Shown here: in pieces, positions 76 through 14,576 of the stretch | Layout: the number at the start of each line of letters is the position of its first letter | Position numbering within the stretch: the first letter of the stretch is position 1 | IMG/VR virus record: IMGVR_UViG_2703718848_000009 | Source of the DNA: a virus | Lineage: Duplodnaviria > Heunggongvirae > Uroviricota > Caudoviricetes | Strand: one strand, 5' to 3' | DNA length: 14,606 bases | Position numbers and translations under genes: made by a program | The notes under the pieces: model-generated | Told to the model about the DNA's origin: nothing | What the model saw: the letters and a program-made list of their open reading frames with translations, nothing else | Database searches by the model: none

Positions 76-104
76 AATGGTGCGATAATAGGAACAGAAC
101 ATAC
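76..104 (-). repeat. Degenerate direct repeat of the tRNA-Thr 3' end (distal att-site remnant, left island boundary)
   Basis: AATGGTGC-GATAATAGGAacaGAACaTAC at 76-104 aligns with AATGGTGCCGATAATAGGAgtcGAACcTAC at 14533-14562 (one indel, a few mismatches). Same orientation as the right-hand copy. Confidence 0.45.
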
Positions 105-349: not shown

Positions 350-1129
350 TTATTCATGAAACTCCTTCCAAGTATTAATATATTCTTTAACTGCTTCATT
401 ATCCGAAAATCCTTTTCCACCATCAATAATATATTTTACGTTTTTCCAGTCCATATACACAGACACAATAGCAACTAAATTTACCAGTTTAACTGGTAAC
501 ATATTCATAAAAATATCTAAGTAGTAATCTTGATGTTCTTCAGGGCATTTATCCTTAACAACCTTAAAAACAACATATACACATCGCACCATGGAAAATA
601 TGGCCATAGATGAATCCTCATCAATTTTATTTATGTAATTTTTAACATCCTCAATTTCGCAAGCTCCTTTTTCATCTATTTGTTTCTCAATAAAAGCCCA
701 TATTGCCTCTTCCAATTCACTAACAGCAGCAGATGAGCGGTATTCTTTTCCGTTAATGTTAATAGTAAAACAACTAAACTCCTCTCTTTCTGAAGAGATA
801 AGGTTATAAAAACCGTCTTCAAACCGTTTTAGAAGAACGTCTTTCTCTTGTCTTCTTTCGTCTTTAATTAGTTGCTCGTTTGCTTCTCGTTGAAGTTTCA
901 AGGAATTAATGAGCATAACAATTGTAATGAAGGTCAAGATAGGATTAAGCACACCTCCTACAAAATCCCCGAAAGTGCCCCAATCACCTTTATCATTGGA
1001 AAAACCCATCCATTTGCTAGCATTAAAGATATCTAACGGGCTATCCCAATGATTGAAATGAGAAAAGTAAAAATACCATACAATAGCTATTAATATAAGT
1101 GAAATAACTTTGATTGAGGGCATCTTCAT
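350..1129 (-). CDS. Hypothetical membrane-anchored protein with two N-terminal transmembrane helices and a ~180-aa soluble C-terminal domain; candidate effector of a two-gene cargo system
   Basis: 259-codon ORF. Hydrophobic segments VISLILIAIVWYFYF and FVGGVLNPILTFITIVMLINSL near the N-terminus. ATG at 1129-1127 lies immediately after the TAA of the upstream gene (TAA-ATG juxtaposed). Strongly AT-rich compared with the core of the island. No recognisable catalytic motif. Confidence 0.7.
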   Translation of the reverse strand: MKMPSIKVISLILIAIVWYFYFSHFNHWDSPLDIFNASKWMGFSNDKGDWGTFGDFVGGVLNPILTFITIVMLINSLKLQREANEQLIKDERRQEKDVLLKRFEDGFYNLISSEREEFSCFTININGKEYRSSAAVSELEEAIWAFIEKQIDEKGACEIEDVKNYINKIDEDSSMAIFSMVRCVYVVFKVVKDKCPEEHQDYYLDIFMNMLPVKLVNLVAIVSVYMDWKNVKYIIDGGKGFSDNEAVKEYINTWKEFHE

Positions 1130-1957
1130 TTACAATATTTCTCTAATTATATAAGCCTTGAGCTCTCCAATATGATCGCGCAACTCATAAGCAGAAATGG
1201 TTATAGGTATAAAAGCGTCTTTACCACCTCTGTTATTCCTATCAAGATTCCTTGAAAACTTATTTTTCTGAGACTGCAATACATGTTCCCAATTAAGATG
1301 GTGTCTAAAGGCAATTGAATCTGACTGTCTATCTAATAACAATCGACCAGTTCCTGTTAACATATTAAACCTAGTTATAATAACATTTTCTTCTACTGGT
1401 TGAGCAGATTCATGCTCTACATTGATATTGAAGAGCGTCTGCGTATCCATTTTAGCAACAACTAATTTTTTAGTTGGTGTTCTTCTTCTCAGAAGTACAT
1501 TATATTTTTGTTTCTCAACTGTTTTATGTAAATTCTGTATAGGTTCCTGAATTCTTATCAAAAGTTGTTTTTCAAGCGGTTTAAGACGCTCTACTAAGTC
1601 GATTGCTTTCTGGCTCTTAAGATGGTGAGCTATTCCCATTCCTTTAGAGATGTAATATGACATAACATCAAAAAAAACACCCCTGCCAATTTCATTAAAT
1701 CTTTTTATCTTTTCAGGATCATCAATTCTAAGTTCAAAATTTTGTCCAAACGATCCATCAAATGTATGTTTGAACATATTCCTAAGCCCATGTATAGAGG
1801 TTGATTTTTTGGGGACTGAATCATCTAAAATAGTGCTTGTTGTAATTTGGGTGATGTCAGAAGCTCCAGCAAAAACCTTTATGCCGGAATTCATTTCTAA
1901 TTCTTCAAAATCGTTCTGCCCATGTCCAACCACAACATCCATATCTAAGTTTATCAT
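1130..1957 (-). CDS. Hypothetical cytoplasmic protein (275 aa), first gene of the AT-rich two-gene cargo operon; candidate sensor/partner
   Basis: 275-codon ORF with ATG at 1957 and an AAAGAG Shine-Dalgarno-like element ~7 nt upstream. No predicted TM segments. N-terminal hydrophobic strand plus Gly-rich loop (DVVVGHGQ). Translationally coupled to the downstream membrane protein. No confident family assignment from motif inspection. Confidence 0.7.
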   Translation of the reverse strand: MINLDMDVVVGHGQNDFEELEMNSGIKVFAGASDITQITTSTILDDSVPKKSTSIHGLRNMFKHTFDGSFGQNFELRIDDPEKIKRFNEIGRGVFFDVMSYYISKGMGIAHHLKSQKAIDLVERLKPLEKQLLIRIQEPIQNLHKTVEKQKYNVLLRRRTPTKKLVVAKMDTQTLFNINVEHESAQPVEENVIITRFNMLTGTGRLLLDRQSDSIAFRHHLNWEHVLQSQKNKFSRNLDRNNRGGKDAFIPITISAYELRDHIGELKAYIIREIL

Positions 1958-2182: not shown

Positions 2183-2440
2183 TTGACAGATGCATCCAAC
2201 GATCTGCACATAAAGTTTTCTAAAGCGGCGCGGTTGACACACTNNCGAAAAACCTTATCAAACCTTAGCATTTCTAAGCATAGCAACTTGACACTTTTCG
2301 CGATTTTTTCGGCTTTTTGACGTGGTAAATCTGGCACAAACCCAGTAATGGCGGGGATTACAGCGAGGTTGACACTTTTTCGCGTTCAGAGTGTAAAGTG
2401 TCAACCTGGCAAGCTGCTCAACTTGACACTTTTTGATGTC
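2183..2440. repeat. Array of TTGACAC(T)TTTTCG direct repeats (4 good copies plus variants and one inverted copy); candidate regulatory or iteron-like region between the HTH gene and the cargo operon
   Basis: TTGACAC at 2234, 2288, 2369 and 2423 (spacing 54/81/54 bp), each followed by a T-run and CG. Related TTGACA/TTGACG at 2183 and 2318; inverted GTGTCAA at 2398. NN at 2244-2245 falls inside one copy. Confidence 0.5.
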
Positions 2441-2966
2441 ATTGATGGTCTGATTTTTCCCATTCAGCCAGGGCGTTTAGTCCGGCTTCGCTCCAGTTAT
2501 CCAGCTCGTCAGGACAAGCATCAGCCACATAACAGACCTCACGTCGCAGCGTACCAATCACCAGTTCGGCATTCTGCCTGAGATCATATTGCTCGAAATA
2601 AAACTCAGCATCGCCGTCATCCATCCAAATCCCGCCATCATCAAGAAATTGCACTTCCCAGTCTAATTCCCCGGCTGCATCCAGCACACGTTGCTGTATG
2701 TCGTCGTCCGTTACTGGCGCAGGGATTATACCGTCTCTGGCCTTAACTGCTTTCCAGAACTCGCCCCACGTCATTTCCAGCGTTCTTTCTGGCCACATTT
2801 CAGAAACGGTGTCTTTCCCCTGTGCCGGTGGGCTGTTCCGCTGCTCTGTCGCCTCCACATCAATTTTTTTGCCAGACATGATCACTTCGCCTTTCTCGAT
2901 CCAGTCGTAAACTGTCTGGCGGCTTACGCCTTTGTATTTGGCGTATTCGGCTTTACTCATCAACAT
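2439..2966 (-). CDS. DNA-binding protein with N-terminal excisionase/AlpA/MerR-type helix-turn-helix and an acidic C-terminal domain
   Basis: N-terminus MSKAEYAKYKGVSRQTVYDWIEKGEV is a typical excisionase-family HTH. GAGGTGA Shine-Dalgarno 5 nt upstream of the ATG at 2966; the ORF-track extension to 3047 lacks an RBS. C-terminal half is Asp/Glu-rich. Confidence 0.7.
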   Translation of the reverse strand: MLMSKAEYAKYKGVSRQTVYDWIEKGEVIMSGKKIDVEATEQRNSPPAQGKDTVSEMWPERTLEMTWGEFWKAVKARDGIIPAPVTDDDIQQRVLDAAGELDWEVQFLDDGGIWMDDGDAEFYFEQYDLRQNAELVIGTLRREVCYVADACPDELDNWSEAGLNALAEWEKSDHQ

Positions 2967-3065
2967 GTAGCTCACCTCATGCATATACGATAAAAAATAA
3001 TTTAATGCGAAAAGGGAATGCGTTGTGGGTATGGAGGAAAGGGGCAATAACCGCCCCTTACTGAT

Positions 3066-3338
3066 TCAGTTGCGCCAGGATGGCTGGCTAAGCGTGGTTT
3101 TCATTACATCATTGACGACCTGCTTTACGATTTCTGTGTTGGCAGTCGTGCTTTCAACATCAACAAAGCCATAATCGCCAATTTCCACCGTCAGGGATTC
3201 CAGTTTCTTCCCCAGTGCATCAGGCAACTCTCCACTGAACCGGTGCCGAAGATTTTCCACCAGCAAAGCCCTGAATGCCTCGCTGTTCTCTTTTTTCTGC
3301 CATAGCTGGCGTTTATCCACTCTGATATTTAATTTCAC
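3066..3338 (-). CDS. Hypothetical protein (90 aa), translationally coupled to the upstream small regulator
   Basis: ORF start overlaps the stop of the 55-aa gene (ATGA overlap at 3335-3338). No recognised motif. Confidence 0.5.
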   Translation of the reverse strand: MKLNIRVDKRQLWQKKENSEAFRALLVENLRHRFSGELPDALGKKLESLTVEIGDYGFVDVESTTANTEIVKQVVNDVMKTTLSQPSWRN

Positions 3339-3502
3339 AGCCTCACCTCTTTAAGTGCCTTATCCATCAGTTGCCGGGCAATAACATGAATCGACGGTGC
3401 CACACCAAGCACAGATTTCTGACGCTTTTCGGCCTGGATACGTTGCAGGGCTTCGATCTGCCCCCGGGAAAGTAAAACTGGCTTTACTCCGTGATTTTTC
3501 AT
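3335..3502 (-). CDS. Small putative DNA-binding regulator (55 aa, possibly ribbon-helix-helix-like)
   Basis: ATG at 3502 preceded by GAAGGGA Shine-Dalgarno. Sequence MKNHGVKPVLLSRGQIEALQRIQAEK... fits a strand-helix-loop-helix pattern. The longer ORF-track version (to 3658) runs through the AT-rich palindrome array and is probably an over-extension. Confidence 0.5.
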   Translation of the reverse strand: MKNHGVKPVLLSRGQIEALQRIQAEKRQKSVLGVAPSIHVIARQLMDKALKEVRL

Positions 3503-3521: not shown

Positions 3522-3578
3522 CAATAATTGCAATTATTGCAATTATTGAAATAATACCATCGATAATTGCAATAAATG
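3522..3578. promoter_or_regulatory. Array of AT-rich palindromic repeats (CAATAATTG / CAATTATTG with TTGCAA cores), putative operator upstream of the 55-aa regulator gene
   Basis: CAATAATTG-CAATTATTG-CAATTATTG at 3522-3548 and ATAATTGCAATAAAT at 3564-3578, i.e. TTGCAA cores at ~9-bp spacing, directly upstream of the RBS at 3503-3520. Confidence 0.45.
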
Positions 3579-3780: not shown

Positions 3781-4104
3781 TTATTTCATCAGATTTTTCA
3801 TTATTTGCGCGATTGAGTACACAAGCAAAAACTCGGCAGCCGCAAGAGTATAAAAAACATAGATTCGCTTAGCCCACCGACGATGAAAGAACTCCTCAGC
3901 ATGGCCGAATGTTCGAGATACAAGCCATGCACCTACTGCACACAGAGCAGGTGCAATGAGCACAGTTATAAACCAGATTGTGATGCCCATCCCATGCCTA
4001 CTGATAATAGCCATTGGTATTGCAAAAATGAATGTTAGAGCAGCATTAGCTAATAGAATATCTTTTAAAGTATTTTCAATTAGTTTTTCTAGATTATCTT
4101 TCAT
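3781..4104 (-). CDS. Small integral membrane protein (107 aa, about three predicted TM helices)
   Basis: Hydrophobic stretches ALTFIFAIPMAIIS, ITIWFITVLIAPALCAVGAWLV and YVFYTLAAAEFLLVYSIAQI. AT-rich coding sequence. The RBS contains a G7 tract (C7 on the plus strand, 4110-4116). Confidence 0.65.
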   Translation of the reverse strand: MKDNLEKLIENTLKDILLANAALTFIFAIPMAIISRHGMGITIWFITVLIAPALCAVGAWLVSRTFGHAEEFFHRRWAKRIYVFYTLAAAEFLLVYSIAQIMKNLMK

Positions 4105-4130
4105 CTAATCCCCCCCGTTGAACATTAATA

Positions 4131-4157
4131 TATAAAAGCCCCTTACTAAGGGGCTTT
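4131..4157 (-). terminator. Rho-independent terminator downstream of the lipoprotein gene
   Basis: Perfect inverted repeat AAAGCCCCTTA / TAAGGGGCTTT at 4135-4157. On the minus strand the stem is followed by TTTTATATATT. Lies 12 nt after the lipoprotein stop at 4169. Confidence 0.6.
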
Positions 4158-4168
4158 GCACGGATTGT

Positions 4169-5311
4169 TTAAAGGGAACTTTTTTTCGCCCCTTCAATTT
4201 CTTCCTGACAAATTTCGTCATTTGTAAATGAGTACTGCAGATAGACATATCCCTGAGTGGAATTGTTCGCTCTGGCCTCAATAGAGATAGTATCGATATT
4301 GTTTTTTAATGGTATTTCTTTTGTTCCCTTCCATGTGGCAGATAAGAAGCGTTCTTTTTTGTTTAGCCCCCTCATCCAGTCCTGAGGATCTTTCCAAATT
4401 GAACCAGCCAGCAAAAAGTCTGTAGTATCAGCCTTTCCATACAGAGAACTTAAAGAATTACTCAATTCTTCAAACTTGGATTTAAGAGCCAATCCATAGC
4501 TATCAGTATCAATATTTTTTCCTAAAGCCCGTATTTGACATAAACCAGCTTTCGGGGAGATCAACAAACCATACATTTCAAAATCTGCGTTTTGCTTCGG
4601 TAATTTATCAGAAGTATACAGATTCACACTGTCTGGTAGTGGCTTGAGCTTAGCACCGATCATATCTTCGATGTTTTTCTGTGTAAGACCGGCTTCTAAG
4701 CCAAACGGACCATCCGCTGGCGGGAGTAAAGGAAGTTGCCCTTGGGAATTTTTGGCTGTTACTTCCGTTTCAGTACTGTTTTTTGCGTCATTATCTTGTA
4801 CTGATGCCAGCTTAACTTCAGCGAGGCCATACTTGGCTGTGAGGTACTTTTGCTGCAACATTGCCATGGTCTGCTCTTCAGTGGCAACAGTAGATAATTT
4901 TAGTACCTTTATCAGACCACCACTATACTGACGAGCATCAGCTTTGGCTTCGTTGATTTTTGCATCTAAGCTGTCAATTTCAGTTTTAATTGAAGCCGCA
5001 AGCTCAGGATCAGGTTTTACTCCAGATACAACAACATCAATTTTGGCACCTGATTCAATAGCATTAATACGCTGTTCCAAAAGCGCTTTATTAGTTCCTA
5101 ATATTTCCAGTCTTGCTGTTGTCAGATTTTTTATCAACCCACCAGAAAACTGCTGGTCAACTTCCTTAGCTGCTGATATTTCACCTTCCGTTTGCGACAG
5201 TTCAGCTTTAAGAGCCGCTACTTCCTGTTTCTGTTCTGGAGTTAACTCTTCTGGCCCACATCCGGTTAACATTACTATACCGACTAATGTTGCAATTAAA
5301 GTTTTATTCAT
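4169..5311 (-). CDS. Lipoprotein (380 aa) with an internal tandem duplication
   Basis: Signal peptide MNKTLIATLVGIVMLTGC with lipobox LTGC. Two copies of a [QR]Q[FY]SGGLIK-containing segment (around residues 52 and 127). Coding sequence is AT-richer than the replication core. Confidence 0.8.
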   Translation of the reverse strand: MNKTLIATLVGIVMLTGCGPEELTPEQKQEVAALKAELSQTEGEISAAKEVDQQFSGGLIKNLTTARLEILGTNKALLEQRINAIESGAKIDVVVSGVKPDPELAASIKTEIDSLDAKINEAKADARQYSGGLIKVLKLSTVATEEQTMAMLQQKYLTAKYGLAEVKLASVQDNDAKNSTETEVTAKNSQGQLPLLPPADGPFGLEAGLTQKNIEDMIGAKLKPLPDSVNLYTSDKLPKQNADFEMYGLLISPKAGLCQIRALGKNIDTDSYGLALKSKFEELSNSLSSLYGKADTTDFLLAGSIWKDPQDWMRGLNKKERFLSATWKGTKEIPLKNNIDTISIEARANNSTQGYVYLQYSFTNDEICQEEIEGAKKSSL

Positions 5312-5445
5312 ATCCCTATTCCAAATGAAAATATTCAGATTAATCTTATCAGGAACCCAGATGCAATTGAATATTCATCTGCTCAGCAACGTAGTAGATT
5401 TCCTCAGAAAGCATCAACAAAAAACCAAGAGAATCCCATCCTCTG

Positions 5446-5733
5446 TTACTGACTACAATTGTTCTTTTTTTGGTATTTCCTGAATGCCTCACCATTGGGC
5501 TGATGTAATCCCATCCCGGCATGTGCCCGGCTGATGGTTTCGCGCATCTCCCCGAAATTATCCTGCCTTGCTGGTGGGCGTGCTGCCTTGTGGATACATT
5601 CCGCGCGACGTTTTGCCGCCTGTTCCCGTGCCTTGTCATCATTCGCCAGCATGATGACCTCAGCCCACCGCGCCGCCGCTCTCCGGTACAGACCACGCGC
5701 TTCCAGTGCTTCCGCTTTGCTGTCGTGAATCAT
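5446..5733 (-). CDS. PerC-family transcriptional activator-like protein
   Basis: KAEALEARGLYRRAAARWAEV matches the conserved PerC/Pch core as I recall it. AAGGAG Shine-Dalgarno upstream. Start overlaps the stop of the upstream ProQ-like gene (ATGA). Confidence 0.65.
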   Translation of the reverse strand: MIHDSKAEALEARGLYRRAAARWAEVIMLANDDKAREQAAKRRAECIHKAARPPARQDNFGEMRETISRAHAGMGLHQPNGEAFRKYQKKNNCSQ

Positions 5734-6272
5734 GCGCCTATTGTCTCCTTTGCTGCCCGGCGCTGGCGTTTGCGCTTCTCATTCAGCGCCACCAGCCGCG
5801 TTTCTGCGTCCTGTTGTTCCTGTGGTGTCACCTCGCCGCACGGCTGGCCTTTCAGGTCGTAGCGTACCCCACCAGCCATTAAGGCGCGGTAATAGTGCGG
5901 ACACTGCGCATAAGATGCCAGCGTCGCACGCAATGCCCCTGGCCCGAATGCCAGCCCCCTGACGGCGAGATCCTGCATCAGGTCGTCGAATATCCCCACC
6001 TTAAGCGGCTTCGGTGCTTCCCGGCTGAATAAGTCAGGCCACAACTCAGTGAGGCGGTTAACGCGCCTGCGGTTTTTGCGCTGGCGTTTGGTCATATGCC
6101 GCCACGGTGTCGCCCCTGTGGGCTTTTGCTGCGCTTTCTGGTTACCGGGCATCACTTTATGCGCCGATGTGGTTTTATCCTGCTCCTGCGCCGCCTGCGT
6201 CGTTTTCTGCGGCGTGCCGTAAATGCCTTTCGGTTTTCTGTTAATGGTCAGCTTAGTCATGCTTTGCCCCAT
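5730..6272 (-). CDS. ProQ/FinO-domain RNA-binding protein
   Basis: PKPLKVGIFDDLMQDLAVRG...LRATLASYAQCPHYYRALMAGGVRYDLKGQPCGEVTPQEQQDAETRL parallels the ProQ N-terminal FinO-like domain (recalled as ARPLKIGIFQDL...[35 protein letters not shown]). The true start may be the Met at 6260 rather than 6272. Confidence 0.75.
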   Translation of the reverse strand: MGQSMTKLTINRKPKGIYGTPQKTTQAAQEQDKTTSAHKVMPGNQKAQQKPTGATPWRHMTKRQRKNRRRVNRLTELWPDLFSREAPKPLKVGIFDDLMQDLAVRGLAFGPGALRATLASYAQCPHYYRALMAGGVRYDLKGQPCGEVTPQEQQDAETRLVALNEKRKRQRRAAKETIGA

Positions 6273-6594
6273 CGTTACAACTGTCTACCGATATAATTGT
6301 TTGATTTATTTAATGTTATTAACACATAACAAAAAAACAATCTGCAAACTGTCTACCAACTCTCTACAGTATTAATACATTGATAATTAATGACTTTTAC
6401 TAAATGGTAGACAGTGTAGATAGTTAAAAGAAAAATTTTAAAAATGAACCCATAACTATCTATTTTTAGATACCCCCGTGGTTTAGAAATATAAAATAAA
6501 CTGTCCACCTCTCTACCACATTAAAAATACCTATATAATTCAAAACATTAATTAGTAGATGGTTGGTAGAGGGTTAAGTGTATCTGTCTACCAA
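6273..6594. repeat. Iteron-like CTGTCTACC repeat array in AT-rich DNA, candidate replication origin downstream of the primase gene
   Basis: CTGTCTACC at 6281-6289, 6349-6357 and 6584-6592; inverted GGTAGACAG at 6407-6415; variants CTGTCCACC (6501), TCTCTACC (6510) and GGTAGAG (6565). Flanked by A/T runs. A 20-N gap follows at 6595-6614. Confidence 0.5.
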
Positions 6595-8391
6595 NNNNNN
6601 NNNNNNNNNNNNNNCTGGTAACCATCCATCAGCATCTTTATCTAACAGAACATTTGTGATCGTTCGCCCTTTATCTGGACCTTTAGTACATTTAGCCCGC
6701 TTGTACTCCTTTCCGTACTCAGCCATTGCCCCTGGCATATCTGTACCAAAGCGTGTCAGTGATACCGGTTTTCCCAGACCATGCGCAGACATATAAGCCA
6801 AATAAGCATGATACAGATATCGCCTCGGGCTAAATGGCACTATTTCTGCATTACCTACTATCATTCCCTCACATTTAACCAACGACATCAGATAACCGCA
6901 GAAGTCCACCAGCGAATCACCTTCACGCTTTATCAACAGTGCTTCTTCTGATTTTTGCTGCTCATAAAGTAGTCTTTTCGCTTCGTCCTGGTCGGCAAAT
7001 CGTGTAAGCAAATGGCGAATCACTACTGCCAGTTCCCCTTCTATCTTTTTCGCCAGCATCGGATCGCGTTCGTTCTCTGGTACAACCTCAGAGAAATTAA
7101 ATATTACTCGTCGACGCGAGATCCCCCCACTACGGTCGCTGAATGACATGGCATAATTGTTTACTACCAGCACTACCGCAGGAACGCGCGTGGAATAGGG
7201 CGCTTTGTGTTTCGGATCGATAGCCACCTTGTCACCGCCTGTAATGGCCTTAATCCCAGCACCATCACCTGCGTAGCGGGTCATGTCAGGCATGATAATC
7301 AGAGAATATCCCACCACTAACGCTCGTTCCCTCGCGTCTTCCAGCGCCTTCATGCTCGCCGATACTGTATTGGCCTTACCCGCCAGCATGGTACAAATCT
7401 CCGCCATCACACTTTTACCGCTTCCGCCCGGCCCCGTTACCTCAAGGAATAACTGCCAGTCGTACCGGTTCGCCAGTACCATGAATAATGCCGCCAGTAC
7501 GCGATCCGCTTTACGAGCATTATCCGCCACCGAACGACGCAACCACTTCCAGAAATTCGGCGCATGTGTTGCCAGCGTTTCCCCCTCTTCTGGCGGGCTG
7601 AACGGTAATTCACTGGCATTTAACAACCAGTCATTTTTGTTGTGTTCCCGAAAATTTCCTGTCCTGATATCAAAAACACCGTTACTGAACCCAATAAGAT
7701 TTCTGTCCGCTCCCCCCATAACAGGTAGACTCAATTTCATTGTCTCTACGGCAAATTTAATGGCGTTTTGCGAATAACTAATTTCGGCATCAATAAAAAT
7801 CTTCGCCATAGACCGCTGGAGTTCCTTATCAGATACAGGCTCCCAAACAATTCCGTTGTAATGGTGAACTACATCAGAATCATCATTTATCGCCAGTGCT
7901 CCTCCATAATGTTCAAGTAACACTTCCCCTCTCTGGCTGGCTCCCATCTGATTTAATGCAGGCTTGGGTAGACCACTATTTTTTGTAGCTAATTTCATCA
8001 CTGAAACTTCCCCGTGCTCAGCCTGTTCGCGGATCCGTTGCAGGTAGTCGCGCCAGTTCTCCGGTTCCTGGTCGGTGATACCTTTGTATAATTTCGCCTC
8101 CTGTACGCCAGCCAGCGCCAGCTTTTCAGCGATAGTATTGATCTGGATTGGCTCTATCTCCCCCGCGATATAGACACGCGCAAAACGGCGTTTCTCGTCA
8201 ATAATGCGGATATTCGCCAGGTCTGCCAGTTGCTTTGGCCCCAGGTAAACAGGAGGCACGTTATCGCCGTGTTTTCGTCCTTCACTTTCAATCCAGTGTT
8301 GAGCATGGGCGTAAGCATCCGTCCCGGCAAAAATGATTACCTCAGTGAATTTATCCTTCGGCTGATATTTTAGACTCGGTGCGTTTTTCAC
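6574..8391 (-). CDS. Phage/plasmid primase, P4-family (alpha-like) with SF3-helicase-type P-loop NTPase domain
   Basis: 605-codon ORF. Walker A motif VTGPGGSGKS and a downstream Walker B-like hydrophobic-acidic stretch (LIIMPDM). The C-terminus is interrupted by the N-run at 6595-6614 (X residues in the translation), so the 3' end is uncertain. Confidence 0.85.
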   Translation of the reverse strand: MKNAPSLKYQPKDKFTEVIIFAGTDAYAHAQHWIESEGRKHGDNVPPVYLGPKQLADLANIRIIDEKRRFARVYIAGEIEPIQINTIAEKLALAGVQEAKLYKGITDQEPENWRDYLQRIREQAEHGEVSVMKLATKNSGLPKPALNQMGASQRGEVLLEHYGGALAINDDSDVVHHYNGIVWEPVSDKELQRSMAKIFIDAEISYSQNAIKFAVETMKLSLPVMGGADRNLIGFSNGVFDIRTGNFREHNKNDWLLNASELPFSPPEEGETLATHAPNFWKWLRRSVADNARKADRVLAALFMVLANRYDWQLFLEVTGPGGSGKSVMAEICTMLAGKANTVSASMKALEDARERALVVGYSLIIMPDMTRYAGDGAGIKAITGGDKVAIDPKHKAPYSTRVPAVVLVVNNYAMSFSDRSGGISRRRVIFNFSEVVPENERDPMLAKKIEGELAVVIRHLLTRFADQDEAKRLLYEQQKSEEALLIKREGDSLVDFCGYLMSLVKCEGMIVGNAEIVPFSPRRYLYHAYLAYMSAHGLGKPVSLTRFGTDMPGAMAEYGKEYKRAKCTKGPDKGRTITNVLLDKDADGWLPXXXXXXXLVDRYT

Positions 8392-9880: not shown

Positions 9881-10984
9881 AGCTACCTCGATACTCTTGC
9901 TATCGTTGGTGGTTAGACGCCCTGCATGTGTGCCACCACTGCGGGGCGTTGTCGTTTCTGCACCTTGCATCAACAAGGTGTTGAACACCAATTTAAGCCC
10001 AGGTGTTAAACACGTCAAGTGTTGAACACTTATTTTTTTTCCTGCATACTGCATTTGTTTTTTGTAAGGGGTACACAACATGGCGACAAAAGCAGTAAAC
10101 GCAAAATCACAAACAGTTGCGGCAAGGGTTCCGCATGAAGTTATGAACAATGTTGAGGCGGTAAAAATGCCTGGTGAAAGTACAGGGCAGTTTGTAACAG
10201 CAGCATTAAAGCGAGAAGTTGAATACCGCCAGCGCCGCAAGGCCAAAGAACAGGAGTAACCATCACCAGCGCCGTGGTGTGAGGAACTACGGTGCATCGT
10301 TTTACAGGGCTGCGCCATGACCAACAAAGAATCAACCAATACACCATCACCGGCACGGAAAAGACAGCGCAGAAAGATAGCGTACGAGCATGAGTCAAAC
10401 AGATTCGCGCCCTGTGCGTTTATCCTTGAGAAATTCCTTAAAGAGTACAGGCGCACAAAAATGGGGTCGCATACCTGGAAAACATCGCGGCATGGCAATG
10501 TTAAAGAGCAGGAATAGCCCACCAGCAAGCCAGCATATTCACCATAATGACCCTCAGTTAAACATAGAGTCATTGGTGCAAAGCTGACACATTGCCCACC
10601 AGCCGCAAATCTGGCATTGTTGGCGATGCGTTCAAGTATGTAGCTTTCCCACTGGCGGCCCTCTGCGGTCGCCTTTGTTTTATCCAGAACGAAATCAGAC
10701 ATCAGATTGATCAGCACCTGGCGACCTGACAAAATCGCATCAGTCGCGCCACCAGCAAAATTTTTTGCTTTCCGGACAGTGTGACCAACGACATTTTGCA
10801 GCAAAATATTCTGCATTTCTGGCGTGCTGTAGTAACGGTGATCAGCGCCTTCACTCTGTGCGACCACAACGCTATAATCTGCCTCGTAGACAGTAAGCAA
10901 TATGGCGCAGTAGGCTATTCGTTCACAAAGGCGCTCCGGCAACGGGGCGCTTTCTCTTTTTGTAACGGTCAGAGCGTTACACAT
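9677..10984 (-). CDS. Uninterrupted 435-codon ORF; only the N-terminal ~140 residues look protein-like. Probably a real ~140-aa hypothetical protein whose stop is missing or shifted, running on antisense to the RHH gene
   Basis: ATG at 10984 overlaps the stop of the antirepressor-like gene (translational coupling). Residues 1-~140 have ordinary composition; the remainder is Cys/Ser/Thr/Arg-rich and low-complexity and lies opposite the plus-strand RHH gene and operators. Confidence 0.35.
   Translation of the reverse strand: MCNALTVTKRESAPLPERLCERIAYCAILLTVYEADYSVVVAQSEGADHRYYSTPEMQNILLQNVVGHTVRKAKNFAGGATDAILSGRQVLINLMSDFVLDKTKATAEGRQWESYILERIANNARFAAGGQCVSFAPMTLCLTEGHYGEYAGLLVGYSCSLTLPCRDVFQVCDPIFVRLYSLRNFSRINAQGANLFDSCSYAIFLRCLFRAGDGVLVDSLLVMAQPCKTMHRSSSHHGAGDGYSCSLALRRWRYSTSRFNAAVTNCPVLSPGIFTASTLFITSCGTLAATVCDFAFTAFVAMLCTPYKKQMQYAGKKISVQHLTCLTPGLKLVFNTLLMQGAETTTPRSGGTHAGRLTTNDSKSIEVAMRNHTTHPQGRDSHNLNKYIWRFIALSTAQPRVIHIEATSEQEARQQSPDGCVMVFAARIRQEVEHV
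9961..10031. promoter_or_regulatory. Cluster of GTGTT-N-AACAC palindromic operators in a divergent promoter region
   Basis: Perfect palindromes GGTGTTGAACACC (9977-9989) and AGTGTTGAACACT (10018-10030), imperfect GGTGTTAAACAC (10002-10013), plus inverted repeat CACCTTG...CAAGGTG (9961-9980). Followed by a T8 tract and the RBS of the plus-strand ribbon-helix-helix gene. Confidence 0.5.
10080..10259 (+). CDS. Ribbon-helix-helix (CopG/Arc-like) transcriptional regulator, 59 aa; not in the supplied ORF track (below its length cut-off)
   Basis: ATG at 10080 with AAGGGG Shine-Dalgarno 7-8 nt upstream; TAA at 10257-10259. Translation MATKAVNAKSQTVAARVPHEVMNNVEAVKMPGESTGQFVTAALKREVEYRQRRKAKEQE shows the classic RHH pattern (beta-strand TVAARVP, helix, G-x-S loop, helix FVTAAL). 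Palindromic operators immediately upstream. Confidence 0.55.
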   Translation: MATKAVNAKSQTVAARVPHEVMNNVEAVKMPGESTGQFVTAALKREVEYRQRRKAKEQE

Positions 10985-11768
10985 GGCTGTTTTCCTCCAT
11001 GCGACGGGCTAACCAACGCTGCGAAAGACGAATTAATTCAGCCTTCCGCTGGTGGTAGTCCTGGCCTAACTCAATCAGCGTGATATTGCTCTGCTCAAGG
11101 TAAGAAAGGTGCTCAAGCTGCAACGTGCTCATGTGGTCGCGTGGTTCGCCTGTAATGCCGTTCGCCAGTGCCCACTGTTTTGCAGTCATGCCACCCAGCA
11201 CGATACGCGCCAGCATGTTCGCTTCCGTGGTGTAGTGGTGCTGGAGTGTGTTTTTACCCAGTTCAGCCCGGTACGCCTCCAGCGCGGCACACATTGGCTT
11301 AAAGTAGCTGGCAACTGTGATACGGGCTTTCAGTTCCCGGCGTAACGCTGCGGAACGAACAGGCGCAACCTTGTGTAGCTCCTCCTCGCATTTGATAAAG
11401 TACTGGCGAACGGCGCGGCCCTGTTCGGTACGTTCGACCATCGCCAGTTCTTTCGCCATGTTCACTGTGATGATGTACTCAAGAGCGGTTTGCTGGCGAG
11501 ATTTTGCGCTCACCGGATCGGGTCGGCTCAAATATTCAACAACCTCATAATCCACGCCTTCCGTGAACCCGTATTCTTCAATGNNCCACGAACGGAAAAC
11601 GCGCCCTACACCTAACGCCTTATGTAACGCTCTGGCGCTAACAATAGTGGTTTCACTCCCGCCAATAACGCCGGAAATAATCGGGATAATTTCGCCGAAA
11701 TTTTGCAGATTCTGGTTTTCAGGCCGAACGAAGCCCCGCCCCTGTACGGGCGTTTTTGGAAATTTCAT
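10977..11768 (-). CDS. Phage-associated protein, possibly antirepressor/Bro-N-like DNA-binding protein (function uncertain)
   Basis: 263-codon ORF directly downstream of alpA. Contains ALHKALGVGRVFRSW, reminiscent of phage antirepressor N-terminal domains. One residue is masked by NN at 11584-11585. Confidence 0.6.
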   Translation of the reverse strand: MKFPKTPVQGRGFVRPENQNLQNFGEIIPIISGVIGGSETTIVSARALHKALGVGRVFRSWXIEEYGFTEGVDYEVVEYLSRPDPVSAKSRQQTALEYIITVNMAKELAMVERTEQGRAVRQYFIKCEEELHKVAPVRSAALRRELKARITVASYFKPMCAALEAYRAELGKNTLQHHYTTEANMLARIVLGGMTAKQWALANGITGEPRDHMSTLQLEHLSYLEQSNITLIELGQDYHQRKAELIRLSQRWLARRMEENSHV

Positions 11769-11845: not shown

Positions 11846-12043
11846 TCAGGTAGCTGTTCCGCGTGATTCCGCAATACGCTGATTAATCCACTCGTCAATT
11901 TCACTCTCAACGAAAGCAATAGCTCGCGAGCCAATTTTAACTGATGCAGGAAATTTACCTTGCCCCATAAGGCGATAAATCCATGCCTTGCTATATCCAG
12001 TTCTACGCTGAACTTCTGTTAAACGAATAAGCGTATTTGACAT
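11846..12043 (-). CDS. alpA: AlpA-family phage transcriptional regulator (HTH)
   Basis: MSNTLIRLTEVQRRTGYSKAWIYRLMGQGKFPASVKIGSRAIAFVESEIDEWI matches the AlpA consensus (L.RL.EV...TG.S...IYRL...G.FP..VK.G.R...W.ESEI.EWI). GAGGT Shine-Dalgarno 7 nt upstream. Confidence 0.85.
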   Translation of the reverse strand: MSNTLIRLTEVQRRTGYSKAWIYRLMGQGKFPASVKIGSRAIAFVESEIDEWINQRIAESRGTAT

Positions 12044-12111: not shown

Positions 12112-12222
12112 TACCCTCAGGCCTAATGGTTACCGGAAGGAAATCTACCCTAAGGGTGATGGTAAAATTGACGGGGAAGATAAAAAAATACCCTCAGGGT
12201 AACAGTAAATCACCCTCAGGGT
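12112..12222. promoter_or_regulatory. Four copies of the palindrome ACCCT-N-AGGGT upstream of alpA; putative operator array
   Basis: accctcagg at 12113; accctaagggt at 12147-12157; accctcagggt at 12190-12200 and 12212-12222. Located between the end of the 267-aa gene and the alpA start. Confidence 0.5.
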
Positions 12223-13041: not shown

Positions 13042-13163
13042 ACCTCAGCGTCCTCTACTGTAGTGGCTGTACCAGTCCGTCGAGGTGTACGGATTTTCGG
13101 GAGCGACCCTAGACACAGCCTTTTCTTTCGTCGCTCAAAGTCTACTACTGTATACTCAACCAG

Positions 13164-14534: not shown

Positions 14535-14576
14535 GACATTAGAATGGTGCCGATAATAGGAGTCGAACCTACGACC
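14535..14576 (-). other. 3' 42 nt of a tRNA-Thr(CGU) gene (T-arm, acceptor 3' strand, CCA); attachment-site core, not an intact tRNA in this window
   Basis: Reverse complement reads TAATGCGAAGGTCGTAGGTTCGACTCCTATTATCGGCACCA, matching from memory the 3' part of enterobacterial thrW from the anticodon loop onward. The sequence 5' of this (14577-14606) cannot form an anticodon stem or D-arm. Confidence 0.6.

What the first reader, a model, noticed from the sequence alone, without database searches (positions are those of the whole stretch)
5446..6272. Regulatory cargo: ProQ/FinO-domain RNA chaperone and PerC-family activator encoded back to back
The ProQ/FinO-like gene and the PerC-like gene overlap by ATGA and sit immediately downstream of the origin-like iterons. 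PerC/Pch-type proteins from horizontally acquired elements are known to activate virulence regulons (LEE activation by Pch in attaching-effacing E. coli is the established example). A ProQ/FinO-domain protein could target host or helper-phage RNAs. Together they suggest the island reprograms host or helper gene expression.
Basis: partly seen in the sequence, partly recalled or inferred. Interest (0 to 1): 0.45.

Follow-up and report, generated by a model that had tools for sequence, protein, structure and literature searches.

The report
FinO-like/PerC gene pair in satellite
Two small, already-annotated regulator genes (an RNA-binding FinO/ProQ-domain protein and a PerC/Pch-type protein) sit in a fixed slot right after the replication origin of an E. 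coli phage satellite, so they look like satellite housekeeping rather than imported virulence cargo; what they do has not been tested.

Summary
Window 5730-6260/6272(-) encodes a FinO/ProQ-domain protein and 5446-5733(-) a full-length PerC-family protein. They overlap by ATGA and lie just downstream of an AT-rich iteron origin that follows a D5-type primase gene. The window is a ~14.5-kb int-alpA-primase island at tRNA-Thr (thrW), laid out like an E. coli PICI phage satellite.

The "cargo that reprograms virulence" reading is only partly supported. In about 85 related islands the FinO-like gene always follows the replication module. PerC usually follows it with the same 4-nt overlap, even where integrase and primase are swapped. 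The prototype satellites EcCICFT073 and the O157 capsid-forming PICI carry PerC in the same slot without FinO. The truly variable inserts, such as the lipoprotein gene here, come after the pair. In most relatives a strong intrinsic terminator follows PerC; here it has decayed.

The published PICI PerC-likes I found are reported as not activating LEE, and one represses it. PGAP already annotates both genes, and homologues occur in 1908 of 5426 complete E. coli genomes.

My best guess (about 0.4) is a coupled regulatory module at the end of the early operon. The FinO-like protein would bind terminator-type RNA 3' ends, and PerC would counter-silence the AT-rich downstream modules. No RNA partner was found. 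Interest is moderate.

The parts
5730..6260 (-). FinO/ProQ-domain protein gene, 176 aa from the RefSeq-consistent start. The open frame extends to 6272. The protein has a disordered basic N-terminal tail (about 60 aa), a FinO fold, and a long basic C-terminal helix.
   Evidence: Pfam PF04352 at 81.6 bits. PDB profile hits to ProQ, FinO, RocC and NMB1681. The AF2 model has pLDDT above 90 over most of residues 60-170, and residues 15-49 are below 50. Foldseek probability 1.0 to FinO-domain structures. The start choice comes from the alignment and RefSeq.
5446..5733 (-). PerC/Pch-family small regulator gene, 95 aa, PchE-type. The model shows a confident three-helix N-terminal domain (residues 5-51).
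   Evidence: Pfam PF06069 at 109 bits, full length. It is 89% identical to an entry named PchE over that entry's 54 aa. AF2 model. No PDB fold match.
5730..5733 (-). ATGA stop/start overlap, implying translational coupling of the FinO-like and PerC genes.
   Evidence: Read directly from the sequence. The same -3 offset occurs in nearly all loci that have both genes.
6279..6592 (.). Replication origin: two sets of AACTGTCTACC-type iterons plus inverted copies, flanking an AT-rich palindrome. The region is 27% GC.
   Evidence: The layout matches that described for Gram-negative PICIs (PMC6092414).
6574..8391 (-). Primase/replication initiator gene (D5_N, DUF5906, Pox_D5). It holds a masked N-run at 6595-6614.
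5418..5445 (-). Decayed remnant of the post-PerC intrinsic terminator (CAGAGGATGGGATTCTCTTGG followed by TTTTTT).
   Evidence: It folds at -8.9 kcal/mol with z -0.56, against -22.8 kcal/mol and z -5.2 for the homologous hairpin in L005. Canonical terminators are present in 23 of 32 distinct downstream sequences.
4169..5311 (-). A 380-aa predicted lipoprotein gene. It is a variable insert between PerC and the packaging-like genes and is probably co-transcribed with the pair in this window.
   Evidence: It is present in only a subset of loci. It has no Pfam, PHROG or PADLOC match.
4135..4157 (-). The first strong intrinsic terminator downstream of the pair (AAAGCCCCTTAGTAAGGGGCTTT followed by a U-rich tail).
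   Evidence: It folds at -14.5 kcal/mol with z -3.6.
2439..3499 (-). Conserved downstream module hyp54 - hyp90 - HTH protein, probably for packaging or redirection of packaging. ATTGCAAT repeats at 3527-3573 precede it.
   Evidence: It is syntenic in E. coli, E. ruysiae and Serratia loci. The HTH N-terminus resembles the small terminase subunit, phrog_57 at E 4.6e-5. Repeats.
11846..12043 (-). The alpA gene, which encodes the activator of Gram-negative PICIs. It marks the head of the unidirectional gene array that ends with the pair.
   Evidence: Pfam Phage_AlpA at 69 bits. Its role is taken from PMC6092414.
13164..14378 (-). Tyrosine integrase gene. The island is inserted at tRNA-Thr (thrW) next to proA. 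Imperfect att repeats TGGTGC(C)GATAATAGGA lie near window positions 80-95 and 14545-14561.

Best explanation
The two genes are a translationally coupled regulatory module that belongs to the backbone of an enterobacterial PICI-type phage satellite. They are not imported virulence cargo.

Shown here:
- The island has the int - alpA - ... - primase - iteron origin layout, and nearly all its genes are on one strand.
- The pair occupies the slot directly after the replication module.
- The FinO-like protein keeps the FinO fold and the residues that ProQ uses to hold RNA.
- In most relatives the pair is closed by one or two strong intrinsic terminators, ahead of the packaging or capsid genes.

Inferred:
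- When a helper phage switches on AlpA, the long leftward transcript runs through the primase gene and the origin and makes both proteins in a fixed ratio.
- The FinO-domain protein binds hairpin-plus-U-tail RNA 3' ends. The nearest candidates are the terminator(s) that end its own operon: right after PerC in relatives, and after the lipoprotein gene here. Binding would stabilise that transcript, or a terminator-derived RNA, or help it pair with a target.
- The PerC/Pch-type protein acts as Pch does, loosening H-NS-type silencing on low-GC DNA. The origin (27% GC) and the downstream accessory and packaging genes (33-41% GC) would be its targets, so that the late part of the satellite is expressed.

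Identity and module status are near certain. The specific targets are a guess.
For: - Domain and fold identity.
- By my reading of the alignment, ProQ K35, R58, Y70 and R80 align with K91, R115, Y127 and R137. These are invariant or nearly invariant in 22 homologues.
- PICI layout: and PMC6092414.
- Fixed position: in about 85 FinO-containing loci with integrases 25-100% identical and several primase types, the FinO-like gene directly follows the replication module (primase, or primase plus SSB).
- Distant conservation: the arrangement also holds in Serratia oryzae, with different iterons and a 41%-identical FinO-like protein.
- The ATGA-type overlap is kept in nearly all FinO-PerC loci.
- Mosaic inheritance: pairwise identities of FinO and PerC correlate at rho 0.70, against 0.48 for FinO and the upstream replication gene. 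In 310 of 559 locus pairs where both are at least 90% identical, the replication proteins are under 60% identical.
- PerC sits in the same slot in EcCICFT073 and the O157 capsid-forming PICI.
- Intrinsic terminators follow PerC in 23 of 32 distinct downstream sequences, built from at least four unrelated hairpin sequences.
- The RocC structure 7RGU shows a FinO domain bound to a transcriptional terminator.
- Pch is reported to bind low-GC sites and relieve H-NS/StpA/Hha silencing (PMC4764244).
- The GC profile jumps from 54-61% in the pair to 27% upstream and 38-41% downstream.
Against: - No RNA partner was identified. Rfam finds only an int-alpA RNA far upstream.
- Synonymous-site diversity along the FinO-like gene shows no overlapping element.
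- In this window the post-PerC terminator is decayed. Capsid-forming relatives show no obvious terminator after the FinO-like gene.
- The FinO-like gene is dispensable for PICI function as such: EcCICFT073, the O157 island and EcCIMP1 lack it.
- The Serratia relative has the FinO-like gene and the same downstream promoter-like region without PerC. PerC is therefore not strictly needed for the downstream module.
- The loci are not independent samples, because many are near-identical E. coli islands.
- The PerC family has no solved structure, and no DNA-binding or H-NS-related activity has been shown for this clade.
Confidence: 0.4

Rival explanations
1. Virulence or host-reprogramming cargo. 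The PerC-like protein would activate host virulence regulons as PerC/PchABC do, and the FinO-like protein would retune host sRNA networks to the benefit of the host bacterium.
For: The PerC assignment is solid. An entry named 'PchABC family' is 63% identical. Authors of PICI papers colour perC as a virulence gene, and one states that some PICI PerC homologues activate LEE (PMC6092414). EcCIMP1_025 does change LEE1 expression, by repressing it (PMC11773190).
Against: The pair has a fixed backbone position across mosaic islands, including species not known for LEE such as E. ruysiae, Salmonella and Citrobacter. The PerC-likes of EcCICFT073 and EcCIEDL933 are reported as inactive on LEE1 (PMC11773190 citing Porter 2005). 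The nearest source-named relative of the window protein is PchE, not PchABC. The genes lie inside the helper-induced gene array, not in the accessory end of the island.
Confidence: 0.15
2. Replication-control module. The FinO-like protein would chaperone a small antisense or primer-type RNA that sets the island's copy number or origin firing. FinO/FinP, FopA/Inc-repZ and Rop/RNA I do this kind of job on plasmids.
For: The gene is always next to the replication module or origin, and it alternates or co-occurs with an SSB gene in the same slot. Plasmid precedents are summarised in PMC9977716. A 5.3-kb E. albertii plasmid carries both Rop and a ProQ/FinO protein.
Against: No antisense RNA family, convincing antisense promoter or synonymous-site constraint was found. 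The gene lies downstream of the origin, not in the leader of the replication gene. Prototype PICIs replicate without it (PMC6092414).
Confidence: 0.2
3. Helper- or competitor-directed weapon. The FinO-like protein would capture structured RNAs of the helper phage (antisense or terminator RNAs of lambdoid phages) or of rival elements, tilting gene expression toward the satellite.
For: FinO/ProQ proteins bind phage- and island-derived RNAs and repress selfish elements (PMC9977716). A satellite sRNA is reported to regulate both satellite and helper genes in the Vibrio PLE system (bioRxiv 10.1101/2022.04.08.487710, seen in abstract only). This clade is almost entirely chromosomal and island-borne, with 2701 of 2703 places on chromosomes.
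Against: There is no direct evidence of any kind. The helper of this island is unknown, and nothing in the window points to a phage target.
Confidence: 0.15
4. Decaying passengers with no current role in this particular island.
For: PerC is frameshifted in some near-identical islands (L006, L007, L061). The FinO-like gene is frameshifted in a different island type in strain BEN2908.
Against: Both frames are intact here. Amino-acid conservation is high, at 0.82-0.99 per 12-codon window across 56 distinct gene sequences. The coupling and key residues are kept. The family is present in about a third of complete E. coli genomes.
Confidence: 0.05

Closest known systems
FinO (F-like plasmids) and FopA (IncI plasmid pCol1B9)
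   Same: Same FinO fold. Same overall build: a basic N-terminal extension, the FinO domain and a C-terminal helix, with no ProQ-type C-terminal domain. Encoded on a mobile replicon.
   Different: Only about 30-37% identical to plasmid FinO in the domain. It scores 64.5 bits against the NCBIfam FinO model, whose cutoff is 136. It is chromosomal and satellite-borne, with no FinP- or Inc-like antisense RNA found. It is coupled to a PerC gene, and I found no report of that pairing for FinO or FopA.
ProQ (chromosomal RNA chaperone) and RocC/NMB1681 (minimal FinO-domain proteins)
   Same: The best sequence match in the PDB is the ProQ N-terminal domain, at E 2.9e-19. The RNA-contact positions aligning with ProQ K35, R58, Y70 and R80 are conserved. 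The fold superposes on terminator-bound RocC.
   Different: It is below the ProQ equivalog cutoff, 52.4 bits against 127. There is no linker plus Tudor-like C-terminal domain. It sits inside a helper-induced island array rather than being a housekeeping gene.
PerC (EPEC pEAF) and PchA/B/C/D/E (EHEC)
   Same: Full-length PF06069 match. It shares the conserved N-terminal D-x-KAE-x-LE-x-GLYRRAA-RW motif. Like them, it is encoded on a horizontally acquired element.
   Different: It is PchE-like rather than PchABC-like. It has a fixed post-replication position in a satellite. The PICI relatives whose tests I could find are reported as inactive on LEE1 or as repressing it.
PerC-like genes of characterised E. 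coli PICIs (EcCICFT073, EcCIEDL933-type, EcCIMP1)
   Same: Same family, at 48-52% identity. In EcCICFT073 and the O157 island the gene has the same position, after the replication module and before the capsid/packaging genes.
   Different: Those islands have hyp-SSB-PerC, or PerC elsewhere, and no FinO-like gene. Here PerC is coupled to a FinO-like gene.
Late-gene switches at the early/late boundary of phages and satellites (lambda Q with tR', P4 Delta)
   Same: A small regulator gene sits at the end of the early/replication block. It is followed by terminator(s) and then the morphogenesis/packaging genes. This comparison rests on textbook knowledge and is positional only.
   Different: There is no sequence or fold relation to Q or Delta. 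No antitermination or activation has been shown, and the terminator is decayed in this window.

Membership tests
FinO/ProQ domain family (Pfam PF04352) | Significant match to the domain model above the curated cutoff | tested here: met
   81.6 bits against a cutoff of 27, residues 68-172. The PDB profile search finds ProQ, FinO, RocC and NMB1681.
FinO/ProQ domain family (Pfam PF04352) | FinO fold | tested here: met
   The AF2 model has pLDDT above 90 across the domain. Foldseek probability 1.0 and target TM-scores up to 0.83 to RocC, NMB1681 and FinO.
FinO/ProQ domain family (Pfam PF04352) | Conserved basic and aromatic RNA-contact residues | tested here: met
   K91, R115, Y127 and R137 align with ProQ K35, R58, Y70 and R80 (my reading; which ProQ residues contact RNA is from my own knowledge). 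They are invariant or nearly invariant in 22 homologues.
FinO/ProQ domain family (Pfam PF04352) | Binds structured RNA (terminator hairpin with 3' tail) and has chaperone activity | not testable with these tools
   This needs EMSA, CLIP or RIP.
FinO proper (NCBIfam NF010317) | Score above the subfamily cutoff, and a cognate FinP-like antisense RNA | tested here: not met
   64.5 bits against a cutoff of 136. No antisense RNA family was found in the window.
ProQ proper (NCBIfam NF003434) | Score above the equivalog cutoff, and a C-terminal Tudor-like domain | tested here: not met
   52.4 bits against a cutoff of 127. The protein ends in a single helix at residue 176/180.
PerC family (Pfam PF06069) | Full-length match above the curated cutoff | tested here: met
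   109.1 bits against a cutoff of 22.6, profile positions 1-89 of 90. phrog_994 at E 4e-35.
PerC family (Pfam PF06069) | Activates the LEE1 (ler) promoter, the property for which PerC/PchABC are named | not testable with these tools
   Literature only. PICI homologues at 48-52% identity are reported as inactive on LEE1 or as repressing it.
ANR (AraC negative regulator) family, NCBIfam NF033650 | Score above the cutoff | tested here: not met
   14.9 bits against a cutoff of 32, E 0.017.
PICI-type phage satellite (Gram-negative lineage) | int, alpA and pri/rep genes followed by an iteron origin; genes on one strand; about 15 kb; no lysis or tail genes | tested here: met
   The criteria are from PMC6092414.
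PICI-type phage satellite (Gram-negative lineage) | Induction, packaging and transfer by a helper phage | not testable with these tools
   No helper is known for this island.
P4-like satellite | psu, delta and sid capsid-size genes | tested here: not met
   No such domains appeared in the Pfam scans of the 20 main ORFs.

The most novel reading that the evidence does not exclude
The coupled FinO-like and PerC proteins form an RNA-level early-to-late switch peculiar to satellites. The FinO-domain protein would recognise the nascent or finished terminator hairpins that separate the replication block from the packaging/capsid block. Together with PerC, it would decide whether transcription or transcript survival extends into the late genes, or it would do the same on helper-phage terminators. 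That would be a new job for a FinO-domain protein, and the first life-cycle function assigned to the PerC genes that sit in this slot in many E. coli PICIs.
Probability: 0.12. Interest if true: 0.7.

Novelty: new member of a known kind. Interest (0 to 1): 0.35.

Why it matters
About a third of complete E. coli genomes (1908 of 5426) carry a homologue of one or both genes. They therefore hold an extra FinO-domain RNA-binding protein and/or a PerC-type regulator that most work on ProQ, FinO and Pch does not consider. If these proteins run part of the satellite life cycle, they offer a handle on how Gram-negative PICIs time packaging and accessory-gene expression, which is still unclear. They would also caution against scoring every island-borne perC as a virulence gene. 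If they act on host or helper RNAs instead, they would be a widespread, horizontally moving layer of post-transcriptional control.

Tried and rejected
- **Rfam on the whole window and on 9900-11100**. This found only an int-alpA RNA at 13052-13119. There was no C4, isrK, FinP or Inc-like RNA, although some relatives carry isrK plus C4 upstream of icd. An island with isrK and C4 (L086) lacks the FinO-like gene, so the two are not tightly linked.
- **Antisense terminator-like hairpins inside the 5' part of the FinO-like ORF** (6052-6068, 6102-6121 and 6211-6227 on the plus strand). They recur in L045, L003 and L082. For the 6052-6068 and 6102-6121 sites the hairpins and T-runs lie in or next to the codons of the conserved basic peptide. 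The total count is not above shuffles (8 against 5.2 ± 2.1). Synonymous-site diversity is flat, 0.07-0.22 with mean 0.15. I treat them as a probable coding by-product.
- **PerC fold search against the PDB** gave nothing below E 2, only generic TPR/MIT-like helices.
- **PADLOC** gave no defence-system hit for the pair or the neighbouring unknown genes. The only match was a weak partial one (E 2.4e-4, no stretch passing on its own) for the 275-aa protein.
- **The downstream HTH protein against the PDB** showed no sequence match to the solved RppC. It has only a weak TerS-like N-terminus.
- **The genome-contig scan** returned only 3 loci, because it depends on exact peptide patterns. The IMG/VR scan supplied the bulk of the loci.
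- **Porter et al. 2005**, the primary test of PerC-like proteins on LEE1, is not in the library. I rely on how two later papers cite it.
- **Correlation p-values** are not meaningful, because the loci are related. I use only the descriptive numbers.
Full report
**What is there**

The window carries two minus-strand ORFs at exactly the reported coordinates.
- ORF 5730-6272 matches Pfam ProQ/FinO (PF04352) at E 4.9e-23 and 81.6 bits, over residues 68-172.
- ORF 5446-5733 matches Pfam PerC (PF06069) over its whole length, at E 1.3e-31 and 109 bits.
- Plus-strand bases 5730-5733 read TCAT, which is ATGA on the coding strand. The PerC start therefore overlaps the FinO-like stop.
- The better start for the FinO-like gene is the second ATG, at 6260 (MTK..., 176 aa). 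Most homologues and the RefSeq annotation begin there.

A profile built from 22 homologues finds the ProQ N-terminal domain, FinO, RocC and NMB1681 in the PDB. By my reading of that alignment, ProQ K35, R58, Y70 and R80 correspond to K91, R115, Y127 and R137. These positions are invariant or nearly so in the homologues.

The AlphaFold model has three parts: a disordered basic N-terminal stretch of about 60 residues, a confident FinO fold, and a long basic C-terminal helix. It superposes on FinO-domain structures, including terminator-bound RocC, with Foldseek probability 1.0.

The protein is neither FinO nor ProQ proper. It falls well below both NCBIfam cutoffs and is only about 30-40% identical to plasmid FinO-family proteins within the domain.

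The PerC-like protein models as a confident three-helix N-terminal domain followed by a weaker helix and a tail. It has no structural match in the PDB. Among entries that carry a source name other than the generic family label, the closest is a 54-aa 'PchE', 89% identical over its length. A 'PchABC family' entry is 63% identical.

**Context**

The window is one island of about 14.5 kb, bounded by imperfect TGGTGC(C)GATAATAGGA repeats. In a near-identical RefSeq genome it is inserted at tRNA-Thr (thrW) next to proA.

Read on the minus strand, the gene order is:
1. integrase
2. an int-alpA RNA motif (Rfam RF02996)
3. a 267-aa unknown protein
4. AlpA
5. an AntA/AntB antirepressor
6. an Icd-like protein (with two short ORFs, including YlcI, on the opposite strand just before it)
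7. several small ORFs
8. a DUF4222 protein
9. a D5-type primase-helicase
10. a 300-bp gap at 27% GC, with two sets of AACTGTCTACC iterons around an AT-rich palindrome
11. the FinO-like gene
12. PerC
13. a lipoprotein
14. a small membrane protein
15. three conserved genes ending in an HTH protein whose N-terminus resembles a small terminase subunit
16. two low-GC unknown genes

This is the published layout of Gram-negative phage-inducible chromosomal islands. Those are described as transcribed in one direction, activated by AlpA when a helper phage induces alpA, and carrying the origin immediately 3' of the replication gene (PMC6092414). No psu, sid or delta genes were seen, so the island is not P4-like.

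**Is the pair cargo?**

I collected about 85 loci that encode a relative of the FinO-like protein: 80 from IMG/VR, plus E. ruysiae, E. albertii, Serratia oryzae and one RefSeq E. coli. Several patterns stand out.

- **The FinO-like gene always follows the replication module on the same strand.** It comes either straight after an AT-rich origin, as here, or after an SSB gene that follows the primase. This holds although integrases range from 25% to 100% identity and several primase types are present.
- **The arrangement survives in a distant relative.** In Serratia the same order (primase, iterons, FinO-like gene, then the three conserved downstream genes) is kept, with unrelated iterons and only 41% protein identity.
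- **PerC usually follows with the same overlap.** In nearly all loci that have both genes the 4-nt overlap is kept. Four loci have the order reversed. A capsid-forming subgroup and Serratia lack PerC.
- **The pair moves together across replicon swaps.** Pairwise identities of the two proteins track each other more closely than either tracks the replication gene (rho 0.70 against 0.48). In 310 of 559 locus pairs where both are at least 90% identical, the replication proteins are under 60% identical. These numbers are descriptive only, because the loci are related.
- **The prototype satellites have PerC in the same place.** EcCICFT073 and the O157 capsid-forming island carry hyp-SSB-PerC in this slot, just before their capsid genes, and have no FinO-like gene.
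- **The variable inserts lie downstream.** The lipoprotein and membrane genes and the two low-GC genes are present or absent among otherwise near-identical islands.

The slot after the replication module therefore holds combinations of SSB, the FinO-like gene and PerC. It behaves as part of the satellite backbone.

**A boundary feature**

In 23 of 32 distinct sequences downstream of PerC there is a canonical intrinsic terminator within about 110 nt, and often two in tandem. At least four unrelated hairpin sequences are used. One example is GCCGGGATTTTTCCCGGC followed by a T-run, in some variants interrupted, which folds at -22.8 kcal/mol with z -5.2.

In this window the homologous hairpin has decayed to -8.9 kcal/mol with z -0.56. 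The first strong terminator comes after the lipoprotein gene, at 4157-4135. Here the pair is probably co-transcribed with that insert.

After the terminator region comes an AT-rich stretch with ATTGCAAT repeats, ahead of the conserved downstream genes. A related sequence sits in the Serratia island, which lacks PerC.

**Literature**

- PerC-like genes in E. coli PICIs are already noted. Fillol-Salom et al. 2018 say some PICIs encode PerC variants and that some, but not all, activate LEE.
- Pick et al. 2025 show that the PerC-like EcCIMP1_025 represses LEE1 in C. rodentium. They state, citing Porter 2005, that the EcCICFT073 and EcCIEDL933 homologues had no effect on LEE1. I could not read Porter 2005 itself. 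The window protein is 48-52% identical to these three proteins.
- Pch is described as a small regulator that lacks homology to known DNA-binding proteins. It sits on low-GC DNA inside H-NS-bound regions and relieves H-NS/StpA/Hha silencing.
- A FinO/ProQ-like gene in a PICI is mentioned only as an annotation, in a 2026 Enterobacter survey. Full-text searches found no functional work on it, and the FinO/ProQ family review does not discuss satellites.
- PGAP already names both genes in RefSeq genomes. Homologues of one or both occur in 1908 of 5426 complete E. coli genomes, almost always on the chromosome.

**Mechanism**

What is shown is identity, position, coupling and the terminator boundary. 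What I infer is the following, with confidence of about 0.4.

Helper-induced AlpA would drive the long transcript through the primase gene and the origin, so the two proteins would be made together as the last products of the early block. The FinO-domain protein would bind hairpin-plus-U-tail 3' ends. The terminators that close its own operon are the nearest candidates, and binding would affect the stability or pairing of those RNAs. The PerC-type protein would counteract silencing on the low-GC DNA that flanks the pair, which helps expression of the downstream packaging and accessory genes.

The rival explanations are:
- replication control through an unseen antisense RNA (0.2)
- capture of helper or competitor RNAs (0.15)
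- host virulence reprogramming, as first proposed (0.15)
- decay with no current role (0.05)

**Weak points**

- No RNA ligand was found.
- Model PICIs lack the FinO-like gene, so it is not required for PICI function as such.
- One relative lacks PerC, so PerC is not obligatory for the downstream module.
- Nothing here tests activity.

**Verdict**

These are real regulators of known families, already annotated and common. The useful new point is that they form a conserved, coupled module in the backbone of a satellite, at the boundary between replication and packaging, rather than being virulence cargo. Novelty is modest and interest is moderate, mainly as a concrete lead for RNA-based control in Gram-negative satellites.

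Noticed in passing
window 13052-13119 (-): A match to the Rfam int-alpA RNA motif (RF02996) at 45.5 bits against a cutoff of 35.8. It lies between the integrase gene and the next ORF. It has no U-tail here, and its function is unknown. It also occurs in the related locus L034.
   Followed up: partly
window 12148-12221: Three copies of CCCT(G/A)AGGGT palindromes (0.1 expected by chance), plus a fourth partial copy near 12114-12122, lie upstream of alpA. They look like an operator for the unknown factor that controls alpA.
   Followed up: partly
window 3527-3573: Three exact ATTGCAAT palindromes in an AT-rich stretch just upstream of the 54-aa ORF that heads the conserved downstream module. A related TTTCATTTTGTGCAA sequence sits at the same place in E. 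coli L005 and in Serratia L004.
   Followed up: partly
window 2288-2433: Four copies of TTGACACTTT(T/A) (0.4 expected by chance) lie just downstream of the TerS-like HTH gene. They could be binding repeats of a packaging (cos/pac) site.
   Followed up: no
window 350-1957 (-): Two adjacent unknown genes (259 and 275 aa; phrog_8999 and phrog_13337) at 28-35% GC sit at the distal end of the island. They are 85.7% identical at the DNA level to Klebsiella phage Kp4865-4 and are present in only some related islands. They could be an accessory or anti-phage pair. PADLOC gives only a weak partial hit.
   Followed up: partly
window 3781-5311 (-): A 380-aa predicted lipoprotein with a coiled-coil-like N-terminal half, plus a 107-aa membrane protein. 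Both are inserted between PerC and the conserved downstream genes in a subset of islands, and neither matches any family. The insertion coincides with decay of the post-PerC terminator.
   Followed up: partly
window 6052-6068, 6102-6121, 6211-6227 (+): Terminator-like hairpins with T-runs on the strand antisense to the 5' part of the FinO-like gene. They recur in divergent loci (L045, L003, L082), but two of the three lie in or next to the codons of the conserved basic peptide. Synonymous-site analysis gave no sign of selection on them.
   Followed up: yes
L003 4242-4430; L034 4197-4382; L086 1838-2026: Related islands carry isrK and C4 antisense RNA matches side by side, upstream of the Icd-like gene. 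This resembles the P1-type RNA immunity region. The window has no such match in the corresponding region (9900-11100).
   Followed up: partly
L086 (NZ_CP148430.1, 12,152 bp): A record deposited as a circular, non-mobilizable E. coli 'plasmid' has the gene content of an EcCIMP1-like PICI: antirepressor, Icd, TOPRIM/DUF927 primase, PerC and integrase. It may be an excised satellite assembled as a plasmid.
   Followed up: no
L006, L007, L061 (PerC region): In three islands otherwise near-identical to the window, the PerC frame is split into two pieces. This is an apparent frameshift.
   Followed up: no
L088 (E. coli BEN2908, NZ_LR740776.1 4881085-4881593): A more distant, frameshifted FinO-like gene sits in a different kind of island, next to an inovirus Gp2-like protein, an HTH regulator, a GTPase, DUF932 and antirestriction genes. 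This FinO clade is therefore not confined to PICIs.
   Followed up: no
L087 (E. albertii plasmid pEA5_2, 5,353 bp): A small plasmid encodes both a Rop primer-RNA-binding protein and a ProQ/FinO family protein. This is another pairing of a FinO domain with an RNA-controlled replicon.
   Followed up: no
window 2244-2245, 6595-6614, 11584-11585: Masked N-runs. The 20-base run lies inside the 3' end of the primase ORF, next to the last iteron copy.
   Followed up: no
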